Assembly (NCBI RefSeq): GCF_056746865.1
Contig: NZ_CM163382.1
DNA: 64,000 nucleotides
Reading direction: 5' to 3' (one strand)
A program made the translations under genes and the position numbers. The notes under the pieces are model-generated. The model was not told where the DNA came from and ran no database searches. It saw nothing but the letters and a program-made list of their open reading frames with translations. Shown piece after piece: positions 35,451 through 49,174 of the stretch; position 1 is the first letter of the stretch; every line of letters starts with the position of its first letter.

Positions 35451-37889
35451 TTAAAAATCAGCCTGACTCGGGATCAGTTTTTGCCAGATAACTGAAACGT
35501 ATTTTGCCTGGTAACGGGCGTCATCAAGTGCATTATGGCGCTCACCTTCGAATGGAATAGCCGTTCTGGCATCGAAGTCTATGGCTTTCCCCAGCTCAAC
35601 GATTGTGCGTACATCTCGATCGTTGTAGTAACGCCACGGGCAGGGGATCCCCTGCCGTTCGTATGAACGGCGCAAAATCGTGTTGTCGAAGTTGGCTCCA
35701 TTTCCCCAGACCTGAACAAAAAATTCACCGGAGTTTTCGTCGATAAATTCCCGCAATTGTAACAGTGCATCATCTAACGGGATTTCATCGGTCATAATGG
35801 CAGATTGCGCTTCGCGTGATTGCTTAAGCCACCATTTAATGGTGTCCCGATCAATGACCCCGCCAGCAGTTTCCAGATCGATAGTCTTACTAAATTCCGG
35901 TCCCATATCTCCGGTTTGCGGATCGAAAAATATTGCACCTATTGAGATGATCGGGGCATCAGGATTTTTTCCCATGGTTTCAAGGTCGATCATTAGATGG
36001 TCACACGTCCTGCTGGTGGATGTGATAACGTGATGACCGTTCACCGTAATTAAGGGATCTGCCGTCTCGCCAGTTTCACTATCGCTGGCGTGATCCTGAG
36101 CGCTGCCAGCATTCTCCTTGTGTGGATGTTCAGCGCCTTCCATTTCCTTCGGATCATTTTCCTGAACTTCAACCTGATTCTCTTCATCGAATGTTTCCTG
36201 GTATGTTGCGTCGCCCATCACCGCGCCACAATCAGGGCAGTTGCCGCCGCCGGTCTGACCGCAGGCGGTGCAGATCTTTTCCGGTTCCTGTTGCACTACT
36301 GGTTCAGGTTGTTTCGTTTCTGGCTCGTTTTGTAACGCATTTGGGCTGTTTTGTTCCGCTTTCTGGTCGTTCTGTTCCGATTCTTGCTGGTTCTGGTTTA
36401 CAGAATCGCGGGTTTCAATCCCCTTTACCCATTTCGGATCATTCGGGTCGCTAATCCCTGCAACAAATTCTCCGCGAGAGGCAGCAAGCAACTTATCGGC
36501 GTCAGGCTGGCTGATATTGGCTGCCTGCATAATTTTGTTTACTTCGTCAGCGGTAACTTTTACCTGTGACTTGTCATCCAGCGGCTGCGGGTCCTGATGA
36601 TGTTCAACTGTATCCGCTGCCATTGTTTCAGCCGTTGCCTGTTCATCTGCCATTGCGCCAGATGGTTGCGGGTTATCTTCATCATTTTTTTCTTCTTCTG
36701 TTTTGCACTCAGCAGCCAGTCCGCCGTTAATTTCTTCCAGGATATCTTTTTCCGGTGTATGCCGGGCAGCCATGAGCGTTTCAGCTGTGGGATTCTCGTG
36801 ATCAGTTTCTGTCAGGTTGGCATTGATATACCCCTGAAGGCGCCCCGGGTAGTGATAAAACTCAGGGTGGGCGCTTCGGATAAGTGCAAAAATAGCTGCG
36901 CGGGAATAGTCCAGGATACCAGGGGTTGCGCGAAGTGCTGCGGACCATTCCCTGAACGGACTTTCTTTTTTCAGGACGATTTCTTTTGCGCGACGATAAA
37001 CGCTGCCCGGAATTTCATAAATATTAAAATCCATCGGAAGTGTGGCTGCTGCAATCTCCACATCCAGCGCATCGAAGGTGTGTACTAAATTCGGATTGCG
37101 ATCGGTTTTGTTCCCGCCACCGGCATTTGCACCGGAAGCCGTACGGGTGATACGCGAAACACGATTTCCTTTCATCCACTCTTTTGTCAGCAGACCCCGA
37201 TCAGTGTAATCAGCGTCCAGGTATGCCTCGAAAAAAGCAGTTATCAGTCCCAGGTCTGAATTACCGGGATTAGGGAAAACTTTGTCAGTGTCGCGTACCA
37301 GTTTGTGAAGGTCGCGAATCTCCAGCGGGTCGAGCAGCTTTGTTTTGTGAGAAATGGCCAGGGCAGTAACAGCCGGCAGTTCTTCCGCCCGTGCTATATG
37401 TAATGCCTGAAGTTCTTCCCGTGCAACGTGCGTTACTGGTTTTTCGCTGCTGTGTTGCGCAAGCCAGCGAATGGGCAGCTCCTGACCAGAAACCGGCAGG
37501 AGCATATTCTCCTCAATCTCCGTCATGTCTTCGCCGTTGACGTTGGTATTGTCAGTACTGGCTGGTTTCTCCTGCACGGAGGGAGAGGGCGCGATAAATA
37601 CCATTGTAATGCCATCTTCCCCGCCTTTTTCGTATCGGTTGCAGAATTCGGTATCAAACACGCCTTCAGGTGGAAGGTCATTCACAACGGGTAAATGGAC
37701 GCGAACGGGTTTTTTAAAGTCGTCTTCATCATAATCGTTGTCATCCATTGCGGTAATGCAGCGGGAGATGGCAACAGATAATTTTTTTGCTGTAGTCCAG
37801 TAAAAACCACCTTTAATTCCCAGACGTTTTCTGACTTTGTCATTTTTTGCTTCGCAATATAGCGCAAATTCTTCTTTATCAGTGCTCAT
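35451..37889 (-). CDS. large phage protein with C-terminal DnaQ-like (DEDDh) 3'-5' exonuclease domain
   Basis: 812 aa; C-terminal Exo I (MIDLETMG), Exo II (WGNGANFD) and Exo III (HNALDDARY) motifs; central acidic linker with Cys4 cluster [16 protein letters not shown]. Confidence 0.8.
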
Positions 37890-46066: not shown

Positions 46067-46235
46067 TTTTGGTTCAACTAAATACAACGTCGGTTTTGAA
46101 GAATGGCATGAACTGTTAATGGACTATGCAGAGTTACGTGGTGGCAGTGCTGCTGATGCTGAAGCATGGCGTGATGATTATGAAGCAGGAAAAACTCCGG
46201 TCGAAGCATATTGTGATGAGTGGGGCGATGAATGA
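46059..46235 (+). CDS. hypothetical 58-aa protein
   Basis: Manual translation MADFGSTKYNVGFEEWHELLMDYAELRGGSAADAEAWRDDYEAGKTPVEAYCDEWGDE; start overlaps the preceding stop. Confidence 0.3.
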   Translation: MADFGSTKYNVGFEEWHELLMDYAELRGGSAADAEAWRDDYEAGKTPVEAYCDEWGDE

Positions 46236-46717
46236 GCGAGGTTAATTATCAGGAAGGGCATGAAACGGCGGGGCAAGCAAAAACAGTGGCATGGCGATAT
46301 CGCTACGTGAAAAAAAGGCGTTACGGACTTTCAGGGGAAGTAGTGGTCTGGTGACTGGAAATATGTACCGAAAAAAGAGGATTGTAACGACAGGCCGAAC
46401 TATGAAATTCAGGCCTTATTCACTGCCCCGCCAGTCCCGGTTACATCAGAAGAACTGGTTAAAGCTGTGCACTTTTATGAACAACTAAAATGCGAAAATC
46501 CACCAGCATCCGGAAACCTGATTACAGATTCCCAGATAAGGCAATGAGCTACCTGGCGCAGAACGGGCTGATAAGTATGGGGAATGTTTTACGATGAATA
46601 TTTAGACTAAAGAGTTTGTAACGCTATGTAAGTGATTTTTTCTGGTTTAGATATTTATATGTCCGGCTAAATTGAGGTGTGTTTAAATGTTATTGCACAT
46701 TGATTGTAGGGGGAATA

Positions 46718-46897: not shown

Positions 46898-47155
46898 ATA
46901 CAGCGAACGCCATTGGTTTAGTTGGATATTTACTGTGCCGGACAAAAACGGTTTGCGGGGAAATCTTAGTTAAGTAGAATGACTGCGGGTGCTTGAGGCT
47001 ATCTGTCTCAGGCATGAACACCAAAAGGCAGATAGAGAAAAGCCCCAGTTAACATTACGCGTCCTGCAAGACGCTTAACATTAATCTGAGGCCATATCTA
47101 TGCGACACATAGAGATTAGCCTCTTACGGACCGAAAGGTCAAGGAGAAGCAGGCT

Positions 47156-47311
47156 ATGAAGCAGCAAAAGGCGATGTTAATCGCCCTGATCGTCATCTGT
47201 TTAACCGTCATAGTGACGGCACTGGTAACGAGGAAAGACCTCTGCGAGGTACGAATCCGAACCGGCCAGACGGAGGTCGCTGTCTTCACAGCTTACGAAC
47301 CTGAGGAGTAA
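47156..47311 (+). CDS. hok: Hok/Gef-family type I toxin (51 aa)
   Basis: MKQQKAMLIALIVICLTVIVTALVTRKDLCEVRIRTGQTEVAVFTAYEPEE matches the recalled HokD/RelF sequence; short overlapping upstream ORF 47100-47159 (mok-like); 3' stem-loop 47319-47340. Confidence 0.8.
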   Translation: MKQQKAMLIALIVICLTVIVTALVTRKDLCEVRIRTGQTEVAVFTAYEPEE

Positions 47312-47478
47312 GAGACCAGGCGAGGGGGAAATCCCTCGCCACCTCTGATGAGTCAGGCATCCTCAACGCACCCGCACTTAACCCGCTTCGGCGGGTTTTG
47401 TTTTTTCCTGGCATTCTGGTTTACAATTCGCACGTCAGCCTGAACACCTGACACCTGCTGCGCCAGTAGAGAAAACAG

Positions 47479-47751
47479 ATGGCGCACAAAACCAAATTTC
47501 ACAATTCTGATACCGACCTTGCCATCCGGCATGGGCGGCGTTCACACGCATTTAAAACCGACTGGTACCAACACCCACCATGTACTGAAGAACAGGCCGA
47601 ATGGCTAATTCATAACTACCGCAGACGCGGATACGAGATTAAGAAAGCCCTCAGCCTCGATTATCGTCACTGGATAATCTATGTCAGGCTCCCTTATTCC
47701 GAACGCTCACCGCGCCCATCCCGCACATTCCAGCAACGCATCTGGAGGTAA
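47479..47751 (+). CDS. hypothetical protein (Rem-position)
   Basis: 90-aa ORF between hok and the DUF968 gene, the position of rem in the Qin hokD-rem-ydfU arrangement. Confidence 0.45.
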   Translation: MAHKTKFHNSDTDLAIRHGRRSHAFKTDWYQHPPCTEEQAEWLIHNYRRRGYEIKKALSLDYRHWIIYVRLPYSERSPRPSRTFQQRIWR

Positions 47752-47752
47752 C

Positions 47753-48802
47753 GTGCGGATATTACTTCGACCTGTTCTGGTACCGGAACTCGGGCTGGTG
47801 GTCCTTAGGCCGGGCCGTGAATCCATGCCGGTATTCCACAATACCCGGGTACTGGTGGAGCCTGAACCGAAAAGCATGCACGGTCTGCCGTCCGGAGTCG
47901 TCCCTGCCGTTCGCCAGCCGCTGGCGGAGGATAAATCATTTCTGCCATTTTTCAGCGATGAGCGGGTGATTCGTGCTGCTGGCGGCGCTGGGGCACTGTC
48001 TGACTGGCTGTTGCGTCATGTCAAATCCTGCCAGTGGCCTCATGGTGACTATCATCACAGTGAAATCGTCATACATCGTTACGGTACCGGCGCGATGGTG
48101 TTGTGCTGGCACTGCGACAACCAGTTGCGCGACCAGACCTCCGAATCACTCGGGCAACTTGCTCATCAAAACCTGTCAGCATGGATGATTGACGTCATAC
48201 GCCATGCAATGAATGGCACGCAGGAGCGGGAATTGTCGCTGGCTGAATTATCCTGGTGGGCGGTCCGCAATCAGGTGGCGGACGCGCTACCGGAAGTGGT
48301 ATTACGTCGTTCGCTGGGGTTGCGTGCGGAAAAAATCCGCTCAATGTACCGTGAAAGCGACATCGTACCGGGAGAGCAGACCGCCACCAGCATACTGAAA
48401 CAGCGCACAAAAAATATTGCGCCGCTGCCTCACGCCCACCAGCAACAGAACCCACCACAGGAAAAGACGGTGGTCAGCATTGCCGTTGATCCTGAGTCTC
48501 CGGAATCTTTCATGAAACGACCTAAACGTCGCCGCTGGGTTAACGAGAAATACAAACGCTGGGTGAAGACACAGCCGTGTGCGTGTTGTGGTAAGCCAGC
48601 CGACGATCCCCATCACCTGATTGGTCATGGTCAGGGCGGAATGGGGACAAAATCTCACGATATTTTCACGCTACCGCTGTGTCGGGAGCATCACAACGAG
48701 CTTCATGCGGATCCTCTGGCGTTCGAACAAAAGCATGGTTCTCAGGTTGATTTAATTTTTCGTTTTCTTGATCACGCCTTTGCAACTGGCGTGCTTGGGT
48801 AA
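47753..48802 (+). CDS. DUF968-family (YdfU-like) protein with C-terminal Cys/His motif
   Basis: GTG start 3 nt after GGAGGTA; C-terminal ...CACCGKPADDPHHLIGHGQGGMGTKSHDIFTLPLCREHHNELH; track ORF 47681-48802 is an upstream extension. Confidence 0.7.
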   Translation: MRILLRPVLVPELGLVVLRPGRESMPVFHNTRVLVEPEPKSMHGLPSGVVPAVRQPLAEDKSFLPFFSDERVIRAAGGAGALSDWLLRHVKSCQWPHGDYHHSEIVIHRYGTGAMVLCWHCDNQLRDQTSESLGQLAHQNLSAWMIDVIRHAMNGTQERELSLAELSWWAVRNQVADALPEVVLRRSLGLRAEKIRSMYRESDIVPGEQTATSILKQRTKNIAPLPHAHQQQNPPQEKTVVSIAVDPESPESFMKRPKRRRWVNEKYKRWVKTQPCACCGKPADDPHHLIGHGQGGMGTKSHDIFTLPLCREHHNELHADPLAFEQKHGSQVDLIFRFLDHAFATGVLG

Positions 48803-48814
48803 AAGAGGTGACTG

Positions 48815-49174
48815 ATGCTCATAGATTTGGTTTTACCTTACCCGCCGACGGTGAACACTTACTGGCGACGCCGTGGCAGCACATATTTTATTTCGGAGGA
48901 GGGAAAGCGTTATCGCCGGGCTGTGGCGCTTATTGTTCGCCAGCAGCGGCTGAAATTAAGCCTGTCCGGAAGGCTGGCGATAAAGGTGATTGCAGAGCCA
49001 CCGGATAAGCGTCGTCGCGACCTGGACAATATCCTGAAAGCACCGCTGGATGCGCTGACGCATGCGGGAGTGTTAATGGACGATGAGCAGTTTGATGAAA
49101 TCAATATTGTACGTGGTCAGCCAGTATCTGGTGGACGGCTGGGTGTGAAGATTTACAAAATTGAGAGTGAGTGA
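48815..49174 (+). CDS. rusA: RusA Holliday-junction resolvase
   Basis: 119-aa ORF with RusA signature ...DKRRRDLDNILKAPLDALTHAGVLMDDEQ... Confidence 0.85.
   Translation: MLIDLVLPYPPTVNTYWRRRGSTYFISEEGKRYRRAVALIVRQQRLKLSLSGRLAIKVIAEPPDKRRRDLDNILKAPLDALTHAGVLMDDEQFDEINIVRGQPVSGGRLGVKIYKIESE

What the first reader, a model, noticed from the sequence alone, without database searches (positions are those of the whole stretch)
47479..48802. Rem-like ORF plus DUF968-type protein with an HNH-like Cys/His tail downstream of hok
The hok, 90-aa ORF, ~349-aa protein order mirrors hokD-rem-ydfU of the Qin prophage as I recall it. The large protein ends in a CxxC...HH...H...C...HH cluster reminiscent of HNH/zinc-binding nuclease folds, and its GTG start sits 3 nt after a GGAGGTA box, abutting the stop of the 90-aa ORF. 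Function of this family is unknown.
Basis: partly seen in the sequence, partly recalled or inferred. Interest (0 to 1): 0.3.

Follow-up and report, generated by a model that had tools for sequence, protein, structure and literature searches.

The report
Prophage YdfU nuclease and partner gene
This stretch of an E. coli prophage encodes a well-known but untested predicted DNA-cutting enzyme (YdfU/DUF968, HNH type) preceded by a small gene that is not Rem, so the finding is largely ordinary and already in the literature.

Summary

K-12 carries rem as an extra segment, plus an unannotated 92-aa homologue of this ORF directly upstream of ydfU.

The ORF belongs to an uncurated small-protein family (phrog_1212, no Pfam match). 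In temperate enterobacterial phages it sits directly 5' of the nin-region nuclease, whichever family that is: DUF968, NinG, YbcO, RusA or a DnaQ-like exonuclease. Its last codons usually form the next gene's Shine-Dalgarno.

The uncovered N-terminal 160 residues of YdfU appear to hold a second, probably non-catalytic, HNH-like zinc module.

The most likely role is a zinc-dependent nuclease that processes recombination or replication intermediates. Low interest; already known.

The parts
46987..47158 (+). hok/sok regulatory leader upstream of hokD
   Evidence: Rfam sok RF01794, 106.7 bits against a gathering score of 59, full model length.
47156..47311 (+). hokD, a type I toxin of 51 aa
   Evidence: Pfam HOK_GEF, E 1.2e-23. 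100% identical to K-12 HokD. RefSeq names it hokD.
47320..47406 (+). hok 3' UTR with two hairpins; the second (47380-47397 plus a T run) looks like an intrinsic terminator
   Evidence: Terminator scan. Sub-threshold isrK-like two-hairpin match, 26 bits against 50. Nearly identical in K-12.
47479..47751 (+). 90-aa ORF: a member of an unnamed nin-region small-protein family (phrog_1212), not Rem; the conserved core is residues 25-90
   Evidence: phrog_1212, E 1e-35. No Pfam or NCBIfam match. No similarity to Rem. Against the K-12 92-aa homologue: 78% identity, nucleotide differences of 11/12/28 by codon position, and an in-frame 6-nt indel. Homologues of 32-45% identity occur in phages of 9 or more genera.
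47744..47750 (+). Shine-Dalgarno GGAGGTA for the DUF968 gene, made of the last Trp-Arg codons and the stop of the small ORF (translational coupling)
   Evidence: Read directly from the sequence. Identical in K-12. The same TGG-(A/G)GG-stop arrangement precedes the next gene in 11 of 14 phage loci.
47753..48802 (+). YdfU-type DUF968 protein, 349 aa, GTG start
   Evidence: PF06147, 255.4 bits. phrog_96 'HNH endonuclease', E 2.7e-174 over the full length. 84% identical to K-12 YdfU. AF2 mean pLDDT 86.6.
47753..48232 (+). N-terminal domain (residues 1-160), covered by no Pfam model; contains a second HNH-like beta-beta-alpha zinc module that is probably non-catalytic
48029..48121 (+). N-terminal metal-site motif C93-Q ... 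[C/H]101 ... L-C118-W-H-[H/C]121-D122-N123
   Evidence: Counts over 30 homologues: C93 30/30; position 101 C17/H11; C118 30/30; W119 29/30; position 121 H22/C8; D122 28/30. Predicted strands 105-110 and 113-118, helix 119-125.
48578..48706 (+). C-terminal His-Me finger (HNH) core. Zinc ligands C276, C279, C310, H313. Putative general base H288. Invariant D303. Helix histidines H314 and H318.
48815..49174 (+). RusA Holliday-junction resolvase, the next gene in the operon
   Evidence: Pfam RusA, E 1.8e-17. phrog_34, E 3.2e-55.
49171..49737 (+). Q-like late antiterminator (DUF1133); the RefSeq start corresponds to window 49183
   Evidence: PF06576, E 4.4e-105, and Phage_antitermQ, E 1.3e-7. phrog_753. 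RefSeq CDS.

Best explanation
The region is the distal part of the nin (early-right) region of a Qin-like lambdoid prophage of E. coli. It holds two translationally coupled genes, followed by rusA and the Q antiterminator.

**Gene 1 (90 aa).** This is a member of an unnamed small nin-region protein family (phrog_1212), not Rem. Its final Trp-Arg codons plus its stop codon form the ribosome-binding site of gene 2.

**Gene 2 (349 aa, YdfU/DUF968).** This is a zinc-dependent His-Me finger (HNH) protein.
- Its C-terminal 85 residues form a beta-beta-alpha-metal nuclease module of the P1 Ref / DLP12 YbcO / HNHc_6 lineage.
- A Cys3-His zinc site (C276, C279, C310, H313) braces the fold.
- H288 is the likely general base, and H314/H318 are the likely catalytic-metal ligands.
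- The N-terminal 160 residues carry a second four-ligand (presumably zinc) site on an HNH-like beta-hairpin-helix. This module lacks a conserved catalytic His, so it probably serves DNA or partner binding.

**Inferred, not shown.**
- During lytic growth the protein nicks or cuts branched or RecA-bound recombination and replication intermediates.
- It works in the same pathway as the adjacent RusA resolvase, as lambda NinG/Rap does at the equivalent position.
- It may depend on host RecA, like Ref and PhiNM1 Gp16.
- In the lysogen it is kept silent by terminators upstream.
For: **Shown**
- Family membership: DUF968 at 255 bits, and full-length phrog_96 'HNH endonuclease'.
- 84% identity to K-12 YdfU.
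- Motif residues are conserved in 25-30 of 30 homologues at 26-84% identity. Cys and His interchange at ligand positions 313, 101 and 121, as expected of metal ligands.
- The confident AF2 model has beta-beta-alpha at residues 285-319.
- hhalign to Ref gives E 2.5e-5, aligning PCxxC..HH..LPLCRxHH. hhalign to YbcO gives E 7e-6.
- The PhiNM1 Gp16 motif has the same layout: CxxC, then His 9 residues later, then C-R-E-H-H-x3-H. Gp16 is an experimentally shown RecA-stimulated nickase (PMC12817073).
- In six loci with 35-84% homologues, the gene lies between the replication genes and Q, with RusA next to it or nearby.
- For coupling: the SD lies inside the last codons of gene 1.

**Published**
- YdfU and DUF968 are in His-Me finger group 7 with YbcO, with a proposed recombination role similar to NinG and RecA-dependent nucleases (PMC5714182).
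- A strong Rho-dependent terminator lies upstream of ydfU in Qin (PMC9160355).
Against: - No experiment on any YdfU-type protein was found. Nuclease activity, substrate and RecA dependence are all inferred.
- Foldseek against PDB gave only non-significant HNH hits, E 0.9-5.
- PDB sequence and profile searches found nothing.
- The HNHc_6 Pfam match is below its cut-off, 22.2 against 26.6 bits.
- The NinB/Orf-like domain that accompanies the HNH in Gp16 and in Gram-positive 'DUF968' proteins (PMC4118853) was not detected here.
- Three of 30 homologues (P0213, P0224, P0253) have lost the HH motif, so not all members can be active nucleases.
Confidence: 0.6

Rival explanations
1. One reading: a hokD-rem-ydfU block as in Qin, with the 90-aa ORF a Rem homologue and the pair of unknown function.
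For: hokD and a YdfU orthologue flank the ORF as in Qin. Some phage records label genes in this interval 'rem' or 'toxin to Rem'.
Against: - No alignment between the 90-aa ORF and K-12 Rem at E <= 100.
- K-12 has both rem and a separate 92-aa homologue of the ORF.
- No Rem homologue in the window.
- PPompW phage records annotate rem and, separately, a 'hypothetical protein' under the ORF match.
Confidence: 0.03
2. YdfU is mainly a host-directed effector or toxin. On this view it is a nuclease that damages or condenses host DNA and halts host replication to favour the phage, as shown for PhiNM1 Gp16, or it acts in exclusion of other phages, rather than serving as a recombination or debranching enzyme.
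For: - Same HNH motif layout as Gp16, whose expression alone arrests growth (PMC12817073).
- Qin genes behind the strong Rho terminator upstream of ydfU are described as toxic prophage genes (PMC9160355).
- The gene lies next to a hok/sok killer locus.
Against: - No match to any PADLOC defence model.
- Conserved placement beside RusA and at the NinG position argues for phage DNA metabolism.
- Toxicity of YdfU itself is not documented in the papers found.
- The two roles are not mutually exclusive.
Confidence: 0.2
3. YdfU is a non-catalytic zinc-finger DNA-binding or regulatory protein, a pseudo-nuclease. For example, it could modulate transcription near Q.
For: - One group-7 member is annotated as a phage transcriptional regulator (PMC5714182).
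- The N-terminal HNH-like module lacks a catalytic His.
- Some homologues lost the HH motif.
- Read-through YdfU-Q fusions exist in databases (P0045).
Against: H288, H314, H318 and D303 are conserved in 26-30 of 30 homologues, beyond what zinc binding alone requires. The closest structural neighbours Ref, IscB and Cap5 are shown nucleases (YbcO is only a putative one).
Confidence: 0.1
4. YdfU is a packaging-associated HNH that assists the terminase in cos cleavage, like HK97 gp74.
For: HNH proteins are common terminase partners (cited in PMC12817073). The prophage has lambda-type terminase genes.
Against: - The gene is about 10.6 kb upstream of the terminase genes, in the early-right operon before Q.
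- Homologues keep this nin position in all six loci examined.
- The protein is three times the size of gp74-type proteins and carries extra domains.
Confidence: 0.04
5. The small ORF is a dedicated inhibitor, immunity protein or subunit of the YdfU nuclease, forming a toxin-antitoxin-like pair.
For: - Tight translational coupling.
- Similar divergence of the two genes between the window and L003, 45% against 52% identity.
Against: - The same small protein precedes six unrelated nuclease families, and sometimes non-nucleases. A specific inhibitor is therefore unlikely.
- More distant DUF968 genes lack it.
- No structural or interaction data exist.
Confidence: 0.1

Closest known systems
E. coli K-12 Qin prophage YdfU (b1560), Pfam DUF968 (PF06147)
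   Same: - 84% identical over all 349 residues, with the same GTG start and SD context.
- hokD lies upstream in both.
- Same C-R-x-H-H motif.
   Different: - The window has rusA between the gene and Q, and a different Q type (DUF1133).
- It lacks relBE and rem.
- It keeps an intact hok/sok leader.
DLP12 YbcO (Pfam YbcO/DUF1364, PDB 3g27), His-Me finger group 7 of Jablonska et al. 2017
   Same: - Same position upstream of rusA and Q.
   Different: - YbcO is only 96 aa, the HNH module alone.
- YdfU adds about 260 residues, including the N-terminal zinc module.
- No direct Pfam YbcO hit.
Bacteriophage P1 Ref (PDB 3plw), a RecA-dependent HNH endonuclease
   Same: - Shared PCxxC...HH...LPLCRxHH motif (hhalign E 2.5e-5).
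- Both are phage recombination-associated proteins.
   Different: - Ref is 186 aa with a disordered basic N-terminus and lies elsewhere in the P1 genome under C1 control (PMC4330346).
- RecA dependence of YdfU is untested.
Staphylococcus phage PhiNM1 Gp16 (HNHc_6, PF16784), a RecA-stimulated nickase
   Same: - Identical motif layout: CxxC, His 9 residues later, then C-R-E-H-H-x3-H.
- Both are early phage genes (PMC12817073).
- Many E. coli YdfU variants carry a precomputed HNHc_6 hit.
   Different: - Gp16 has a NinB/Orf-like N-terminal domain. None was detected in YdfU.
- The window protein scores below the HNHc_6 cut-off.
Lambda NinG (Rap), a branch-specific endonuclease (Pfam NinG)
   Same: - Same place in the nin region, just before Q.
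- In Gifsy-2 and GF-2 it is preceded by the same small ORF family.
- It is also a His-Me finger family (PMC5714182).
   Different: No detectable sequence match. It is a positional and probably functional analogue, not a family member.

Membership tests
Pfam DUF968 (PF06147) / YdfU | HMM score above the curated gathering threshold | tested here: met
   255.4 bits against 27.8; residues 160-346 cover profile positions 1-171 of 171. 84% identity to K-12 YdfU.
His-Me finger (HNH, beta-beta-alpha-metal) nucleases | Beta-hairpin followed by an alpha-helix that carries the motif | tested here: met
   [not shown]
His-Me finger (HNH, beta-beta-alpha-metal) nucleases | Conserved His (general base) at the end of strand 1, and His/Asn metal ligand(s) on the helix | tested here: met
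   H288 27/30, H314 26/30, H318 26/30, D303 30/30 in homologues of 26-84% identity.
His-Me finger (HNH, beta-beta-alpha-metal) nucleases | Structural zinc site, CxxC plus CxxC/H, in the zinc-containing subgroups | tested here: met
   C276 30/30, C279 25/30, C310 26/30, position 313 C14/H11. Metal content itself was not measured.
His-Me finger (HNH, beta-beta-alpha-metal) nucleases | Metal-dependent nuclease activity | not testable with these tools
   No experimental paper on YdfU was found.
Rem (K-12 b1561) | Sequence similarity of the 90-aa ORF to Rem | tested here: not met
   BLASTP finds no alignment at E <= 100. tblastn of Rem against the whole window gives best E 1.7.
Hok/Gef type I toxin with sok antisense control | Hok peptide and the upstream mok/sok leader RNA | tested here: met
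   HOK_GEF E 1.2e-23. Rfam sok 106.7 bits against 59.
HNHc_6 (PF16784; Orf/NinB-HNH fusion proteins such as PhiNM1 Gp16) | HMM score above the gathering threshold | tested here: not met
   22.2 bits against 26.6, covering only residues 271-319.
HNHc_6 (PF16784; Orf/NinB-HNH fusion proteins such as PhiNM1 Gp16) | NinB/Orf-like domain N-terminal to the HNH | tested here: not met
   [not shown]
Ref-type RecA-dependent nucleases | Ref-like HNH core | tested here: met
   [not shown]
Ref-type RecA-dependent nucleases | Cleavage only of RecA-bound DNA | not testable with these tools
   Needs biochemistry.
NinG/Rap (PF05766) | HMM match | tested here: not met
   No NinG hit at E <= 0.1. It is only a positional analogue.
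Terminase-associated HNH (HK97 gp74 type) | Gene adjacent to the terminase or portal genes | tested here: not met
   The terminase small subunit starts about 10.6 kb downstream (L001 24481 against 13903). Homologues keep the pre-Q position.
phrog_1212 small nin-region protein (the 90-aa ORF) | Profile match and a conserved 66-aa core | tested here: met
   E 1e-35, residues 25-90 cover profile positions 1-66 of 66. 32-45% identity to proteins of Gifsy-2, mEp237, N15 and L003.

The most novel reading that the evidence does not exclude
Two readings go beyond what is published and are not excluded by the evidence.

**(a) A generic nuclease companion.**
- The 66-aa core protein (phrog_1212; unannotated in K-12 and in N15) may be a functional, translationally coupled companion of whatever nuclease occupies the nin region. 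The nucleases seen are DUF968, NinG, YbcO, RusA, DnaQ-like and Rv2179c-like.
- It could be, for example, a common adaptor to a host factor or to a DNA substrate, rather than a mere syntenic neighbour.

**(b) A tandem HNH architecture.**
- YdfU-type proteins may be tandem HNH proteins in which an N-terminal pseudo-nuclease zinc module directs the C-terminal active module.
Probability: 0.25. Interest if true: 0.45.

Novelty: already known. Interest (0 to 1): 0.18.

Why it matters
- The protein is identical to a RefSeq entry and 84% identical to K-12 YdfU.
- The HNH/His-Me finger nature of DUF968, and its RusA and Q neighbours, were published in 2017.

Some modest value lies elsewhere.
- YdfU-type genes matched in most of the 5426 complete E. 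coli genomes searched, yet they remain untested. The recent Gp16 and Ref work gives a concrete hypothesis to test: a RecA-stimulated nickase.
- The 'Rem' label is corrected. K-12 MG1655 turns out to lack an annotation for a conserved 92-aa gene upstream of ydfU.
- A small protein family sits 5' of six different nuclease families in temperate enterobacterial phages. This is a cheap, testable lead on how nin-region nucleases are expressed or targeted.

Tried and rejected
- **PDB by sequence and by profile.** Only chance C2H2 zinc-finger hits, or none.
- **NCBIfam and PADLOC.** No model matched either protein.
- **NinE, NinF and other Pfam families for the small ORF.**
  - hhalign to K-12 NinE gave probability 0.1%.
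  - There was no Pfam hit for six family members even at E <= 10.
  - NinF co-occurs with the small ORF in Erwinia phage 59, so they are different genes.
- **Internal duplication of YdfU (N module against C module).** Not significant: E 0.022, probability 2%. I therefore claim fold resemblance only.
- **Apparent domain fusions.**
  - Fusions of the YdfU N-terminus to tail-fibre, J, collar and portal domains were rejected as evidence of function.
  - They are single-contig gene calls joining unrelated prophage modules, probably chimeras.
- **The search for related loci with the six-member alignment.** The three-member run returned 80 near-identical Gifsy-type loci (65 of 71 followed by NinG), which adds numbers but not diversity.
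- **Literature search for 'YbcO'.** Swamped by papers on the superconductor.
- **The word-indexed protein search for the small ORF.** Found only Escherichia and Shigella. tblastn later showed the family in at least nine genera, so the first result reflected the search method.
- **isrK-like RNA hit at 47320-47401.** Below threshold and explained by the two hairpins of the hok 3' UTR.
- **Promoter scan.** No more sites than in shuffled sequence.
Full report
**1. What is in the sequence**

The window stretch is 100% identical to the chromosome of E. coli CFSAN061770. It lies in a Qin-like lambdoid prophage.

On the + strand the order is as follows:
- hok/sok leader, 46987-47158 (Rfam sok, 106.7 bits);
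- hokD, 47156-47311;
- hok 3' UTR and terminator hairpin, 47380-47397;
- a 90-aa ORF, 47479-47751;
- a 349-aa ORF, GTG 47753-48802;
- rusA, 48815-49174;
- a Q-like antiterminator, 49171-49737;
- an IS3-family element.

One detail needs correcting. The GGAGGTA box is 47744-47750, so the GTG begins 2 nt after it. The TAA stop of the small ORF (47749-47751) sits inside the box.

The GTG start is supported three ways: by the RefSeq annotation, by K-12 ydfU, and by homologues of 26-52% identity that begin at the same residue.

**2. The large protein**

Family and identity:
- It matches Pfam DUF968 at 255.4 bits (cut-off 27.8) over residues 160-346.
- It matches phrog_96 'HNH endonuclease' over its whole length.
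- It is 84% identical to K-12 YdfU.

Conservation. A search of 1.84 billion cluster representatives gave 3099 relatives. I aligned 29 full-length ones of 26-84% identity. The counts are:
- C276 30/30, C279 25/30;
- H287 26/30, H288 27/30;
- D303 30/30, P308 30/30, C310 26/30;
- position 313 Cys in 14 and His in 11;
- H314 26/30, H318 26/30.

Neither is met.

Structure:
- AlphaFold2 with this alignment gives mean pLDDT 86.6. It predicts strands 285-288 and 306-309 and helix 311-319, the beta-beta-alpha-metal topology.
- Profile comparison links the family to Ref (E 2.5e-5, aligning PCxxC..HH..LPLCRxHH) and to YbcO (E 7e-6 over 75 columns).
- Foldseek and PDB sequence searches were uninformative.

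**3. What was already known**

- Jablonska et al. 2017 (PMC5714182) place DUF968 and DUF1364 in His-Me finger group 7. [quoted passage not shown]
- Curtis et al. 2014 (PMC4118853) described 'DUF968' proteins of Gram-positive phages as Orf/NinB-like domains fused to a zinc-finger HNH.
- Xu et al. 2026 (PMC12817073) showed that PhiNM1 Gp16 is a nickase stimulated by RecA. It arrests host replication and promotes phage growth. Gp16 has a NinB-like domain plus an HNH 'subclass 6' module.
  - The Gp16 motif is C145xxC148, H157, C181-R-E-H184-H185, H189.
  - The window protein has the same spacing: C276xxC279, H288, C310-R-E-H313-H314, H318.
- A strong Rho-dependent terminator upstream of ydfU keeps this part of Qin silent (PMC9160355).
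- No experimental study of YdfU itself was found.

**4. What I add on the large protein**

Residues 1-160 are covered by no Pfam model. They carry a second conserved four-ligand motif:
- C93 30/30;
- position 101 Cys 17 / His 11;
- C118 30/30, W119 29/30;
- position 121 His 22 / Cys 8;
- D122 28/30.

The motif lies on a predicted beta-hairpin (105-110, 113-118) plus helix (119-125).

No NinB/Orf-like domain was detected. The protein therefore differs from Gp16 and from the Gram-positive proteins discussed by Curtis et al.

**5. The 90-aa ORF is not Rem**

- BLASTP against K-12 Rem finds nothing, and the window has no Rem homologue.
- DNA alignment with Qin shows that K-12 has an extra ~385-bp segment holding rem, between the hokD terminator and an intact 92-aa ORF.
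- That 92-aa ORF is the true homologue of the window's ORF. It is not annotated in NC_000913.3.
- Evidence that the ORF is a real gene:
  - 78% amino-acid identity between the two copies;
  - nucleotide differences of 11/12/28 by codon position;
  - a 6-nt in-frame indel.
- It matches phrog_1212 (unknown function) over residues 25-90, and no Pfam or NCBIfam family.

**6. The small ORF family and its neighbours**

A 45%-identical 67-aa homologue overlaps the start of a 52%-identical DUF968 gene in another prophage (TGATG overlap).

tblastn finds the 66-aa core in 61 phage records. They come from Escherichia, Klebsiella, Salmonella, Edwardsiella, Yersinia, Cronobacter, Enterobacter, Hafnia, Citrobacter and Erwinia.

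| Gene directly downstream | Loci |
|---|---|
| DUF968 | window, K-12, L003, Klebsiella ST846-OXA48phi9.1 |
| NinG | Gifsy-2, Edwardsiella GF-2; also 65 of 71 Gifsy-like IMG/VR loci |
| YbcO | mEp237, Cronobacter phiES15, Klebsiella ST13-OXA48phi12.4 |
| RusA, then YdfU | Citrobacter Chris1 |
| RNase_T/DnaQ-type exonuclease with a Lar domain | N15 gp41 |
| Rv2179c-like exonuclease | PhiR46_1 |
| NinX, an unidentified 118-aa ORF, then NinG | Hafnia Meifeng |
| Dcm methylase, then NinF and NinG | Erwinia 59 |
| Unknown ORF | PY54 |

In 12 of 15 distinct contexts a nuclease follows directly, and six nuclease families are represented.

Further points:
- The upstream neighbour is often a DUF1367/NinB-like gene.
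- In 11 of 14 junctions the last codons (TGG-AGG or TGG-GGG plus stop) form a Shine-Dalgarno 5-8 nt before the next start codon.
- More distant DUF968 genes lack the small ORF. They follow an antirepressor, DUF4406 or a lambda-P-like gene.
- The family is not NinE and not NinF, which co-occurs with it.
- Whether the association is functional, or reflects conserved gene order with coupled translation, cannot be decided here.

**7. Mechanism**

Shown:
- family membership;
- conserved catalytic and zinc-binding residues;
- predicted fold;
- conserved nin-region position next to RusA and Q;
- translational coupling signals.

Inferred:
- YdfU is an active zinc-braced His-Me finger nuclease.
- It nicks or cleaves recombination or replication intermediates during lytic growth, in the pathway served by RusA and, in lambda, by NinG/Rap.
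- It may depend on RecA, as Ref and Gp16 do.

My confidence is about 0.95 for the HNH identity, about 0.6 for the overall statement, and about 0.25 for RecA dependence specifically.

Rivals:
- A host-directed toxic nuclease (0.2, not exclusive of the main reading).
- A non-catalytic DNA-binding protein (0.1).
- The small ORF as a specific inhibitor (0.1).
- A terminase helper (0.04). The terminase genes lie about 10.6 kb downstream, which argues against it.
- The Rem reading (refuted).

**8. Verdict**

The element is a known, very common E. coli prophage gene. Its predicted nature is already in the literature, so the novelty class is 'already known' and interest is low (0.18).

The by-products are of modest interest and are stated as such:
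- the unannotated K-12 gene;
- the small protein family that precedes diverse nucleases;
- a possible second HNH-like module.

Noticed in passing
L002 4307-4585 (-), i.e. NC_000913.3 1644306-1644584 minus strand: K-12 MG1655 has an intact 92-aa ORF between rem and ydfU, homologous to the window's 90-aa ORF. The two share 78% identity, and most differences fall at third codon positions. The RefSeq record annotates no CDS there, although PGAP annotates the homologue in other strains.
   Followed up: yes
window 46987-47158: The window keeps a complete hok/sok regulatory leader (Rfam sok, 106.7 bits). In K-12, similarity to the window begins only about 15 nt before the hokD ATG, where relBE lies instead.
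   Followed up: partly
window 51650-51854 (+): Full-length match to the sRNA family STnc100 (RF02076, 133.5 bits against a gathering score of 47), just after the IS3-family element and before the iraM-like gene.
   Followed up: no
window 47353-47532 (-): RefSeq annotates a 59-aa 'hypothetical protein' (WP_001112736.1) antisense to the hok terminator and to the start of the 90-aa ORF. No support for it was seen, and it may be a spurious call.
   Followed up: partly
window 47320-47401 (+): Sub-threshold isrK-like match (26 bits against 50). It consists of two hairpins in the hok 3' UTR, the second being the terminator. It is probably only a generic structural resemblance.
   Followed up: partly
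window 50251-51524 (+) and L001 1669-3015: An IS3-family transposase pair lies just downstream of Q, and an IS4 element lies further upstream. Several frameshifted ORFs occur at window ~46232-46597. Together these suggest a decaying prophage.
   Followed up: no
proteins P0143, P0186, P0189, P0124, P0045, P0050: Database proteins join the YdfU N-terminal part to tail-fibre, J, collar or portal domains; these are likely chimeric gene calls. Separately, read-through YdfU-Q (607 aa) and YdfU-RusA (447 aa) fusions exist.
   Followed up: partly
L011 2489-2713 (phage N15, NC_001901.1 ~35939-36151): The small-ORF homologue in phage N15 is unannotated in the RefSeq genome; an older partial record calls it 'orf QD1'. 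It lies directly upstream of gp41, a DnaQ-like exonuclease with a Lar domain.
   Followed up: partly
L007 6639-6881: A prophage carrying a distant DUF968 homologue (P0159) also encodes a protein with an Acb2/Tad1-hairpin Pfam hit (an anti-CBASS/Thoeris sponge family) after its lysis genes.
   Followed up: no
L006 5168-6699: In the prophage that carries P0132, a Ser/Thr kinase and PP2C phosphatase gene pair lies between Q and the holin genes.
   Followed up: no
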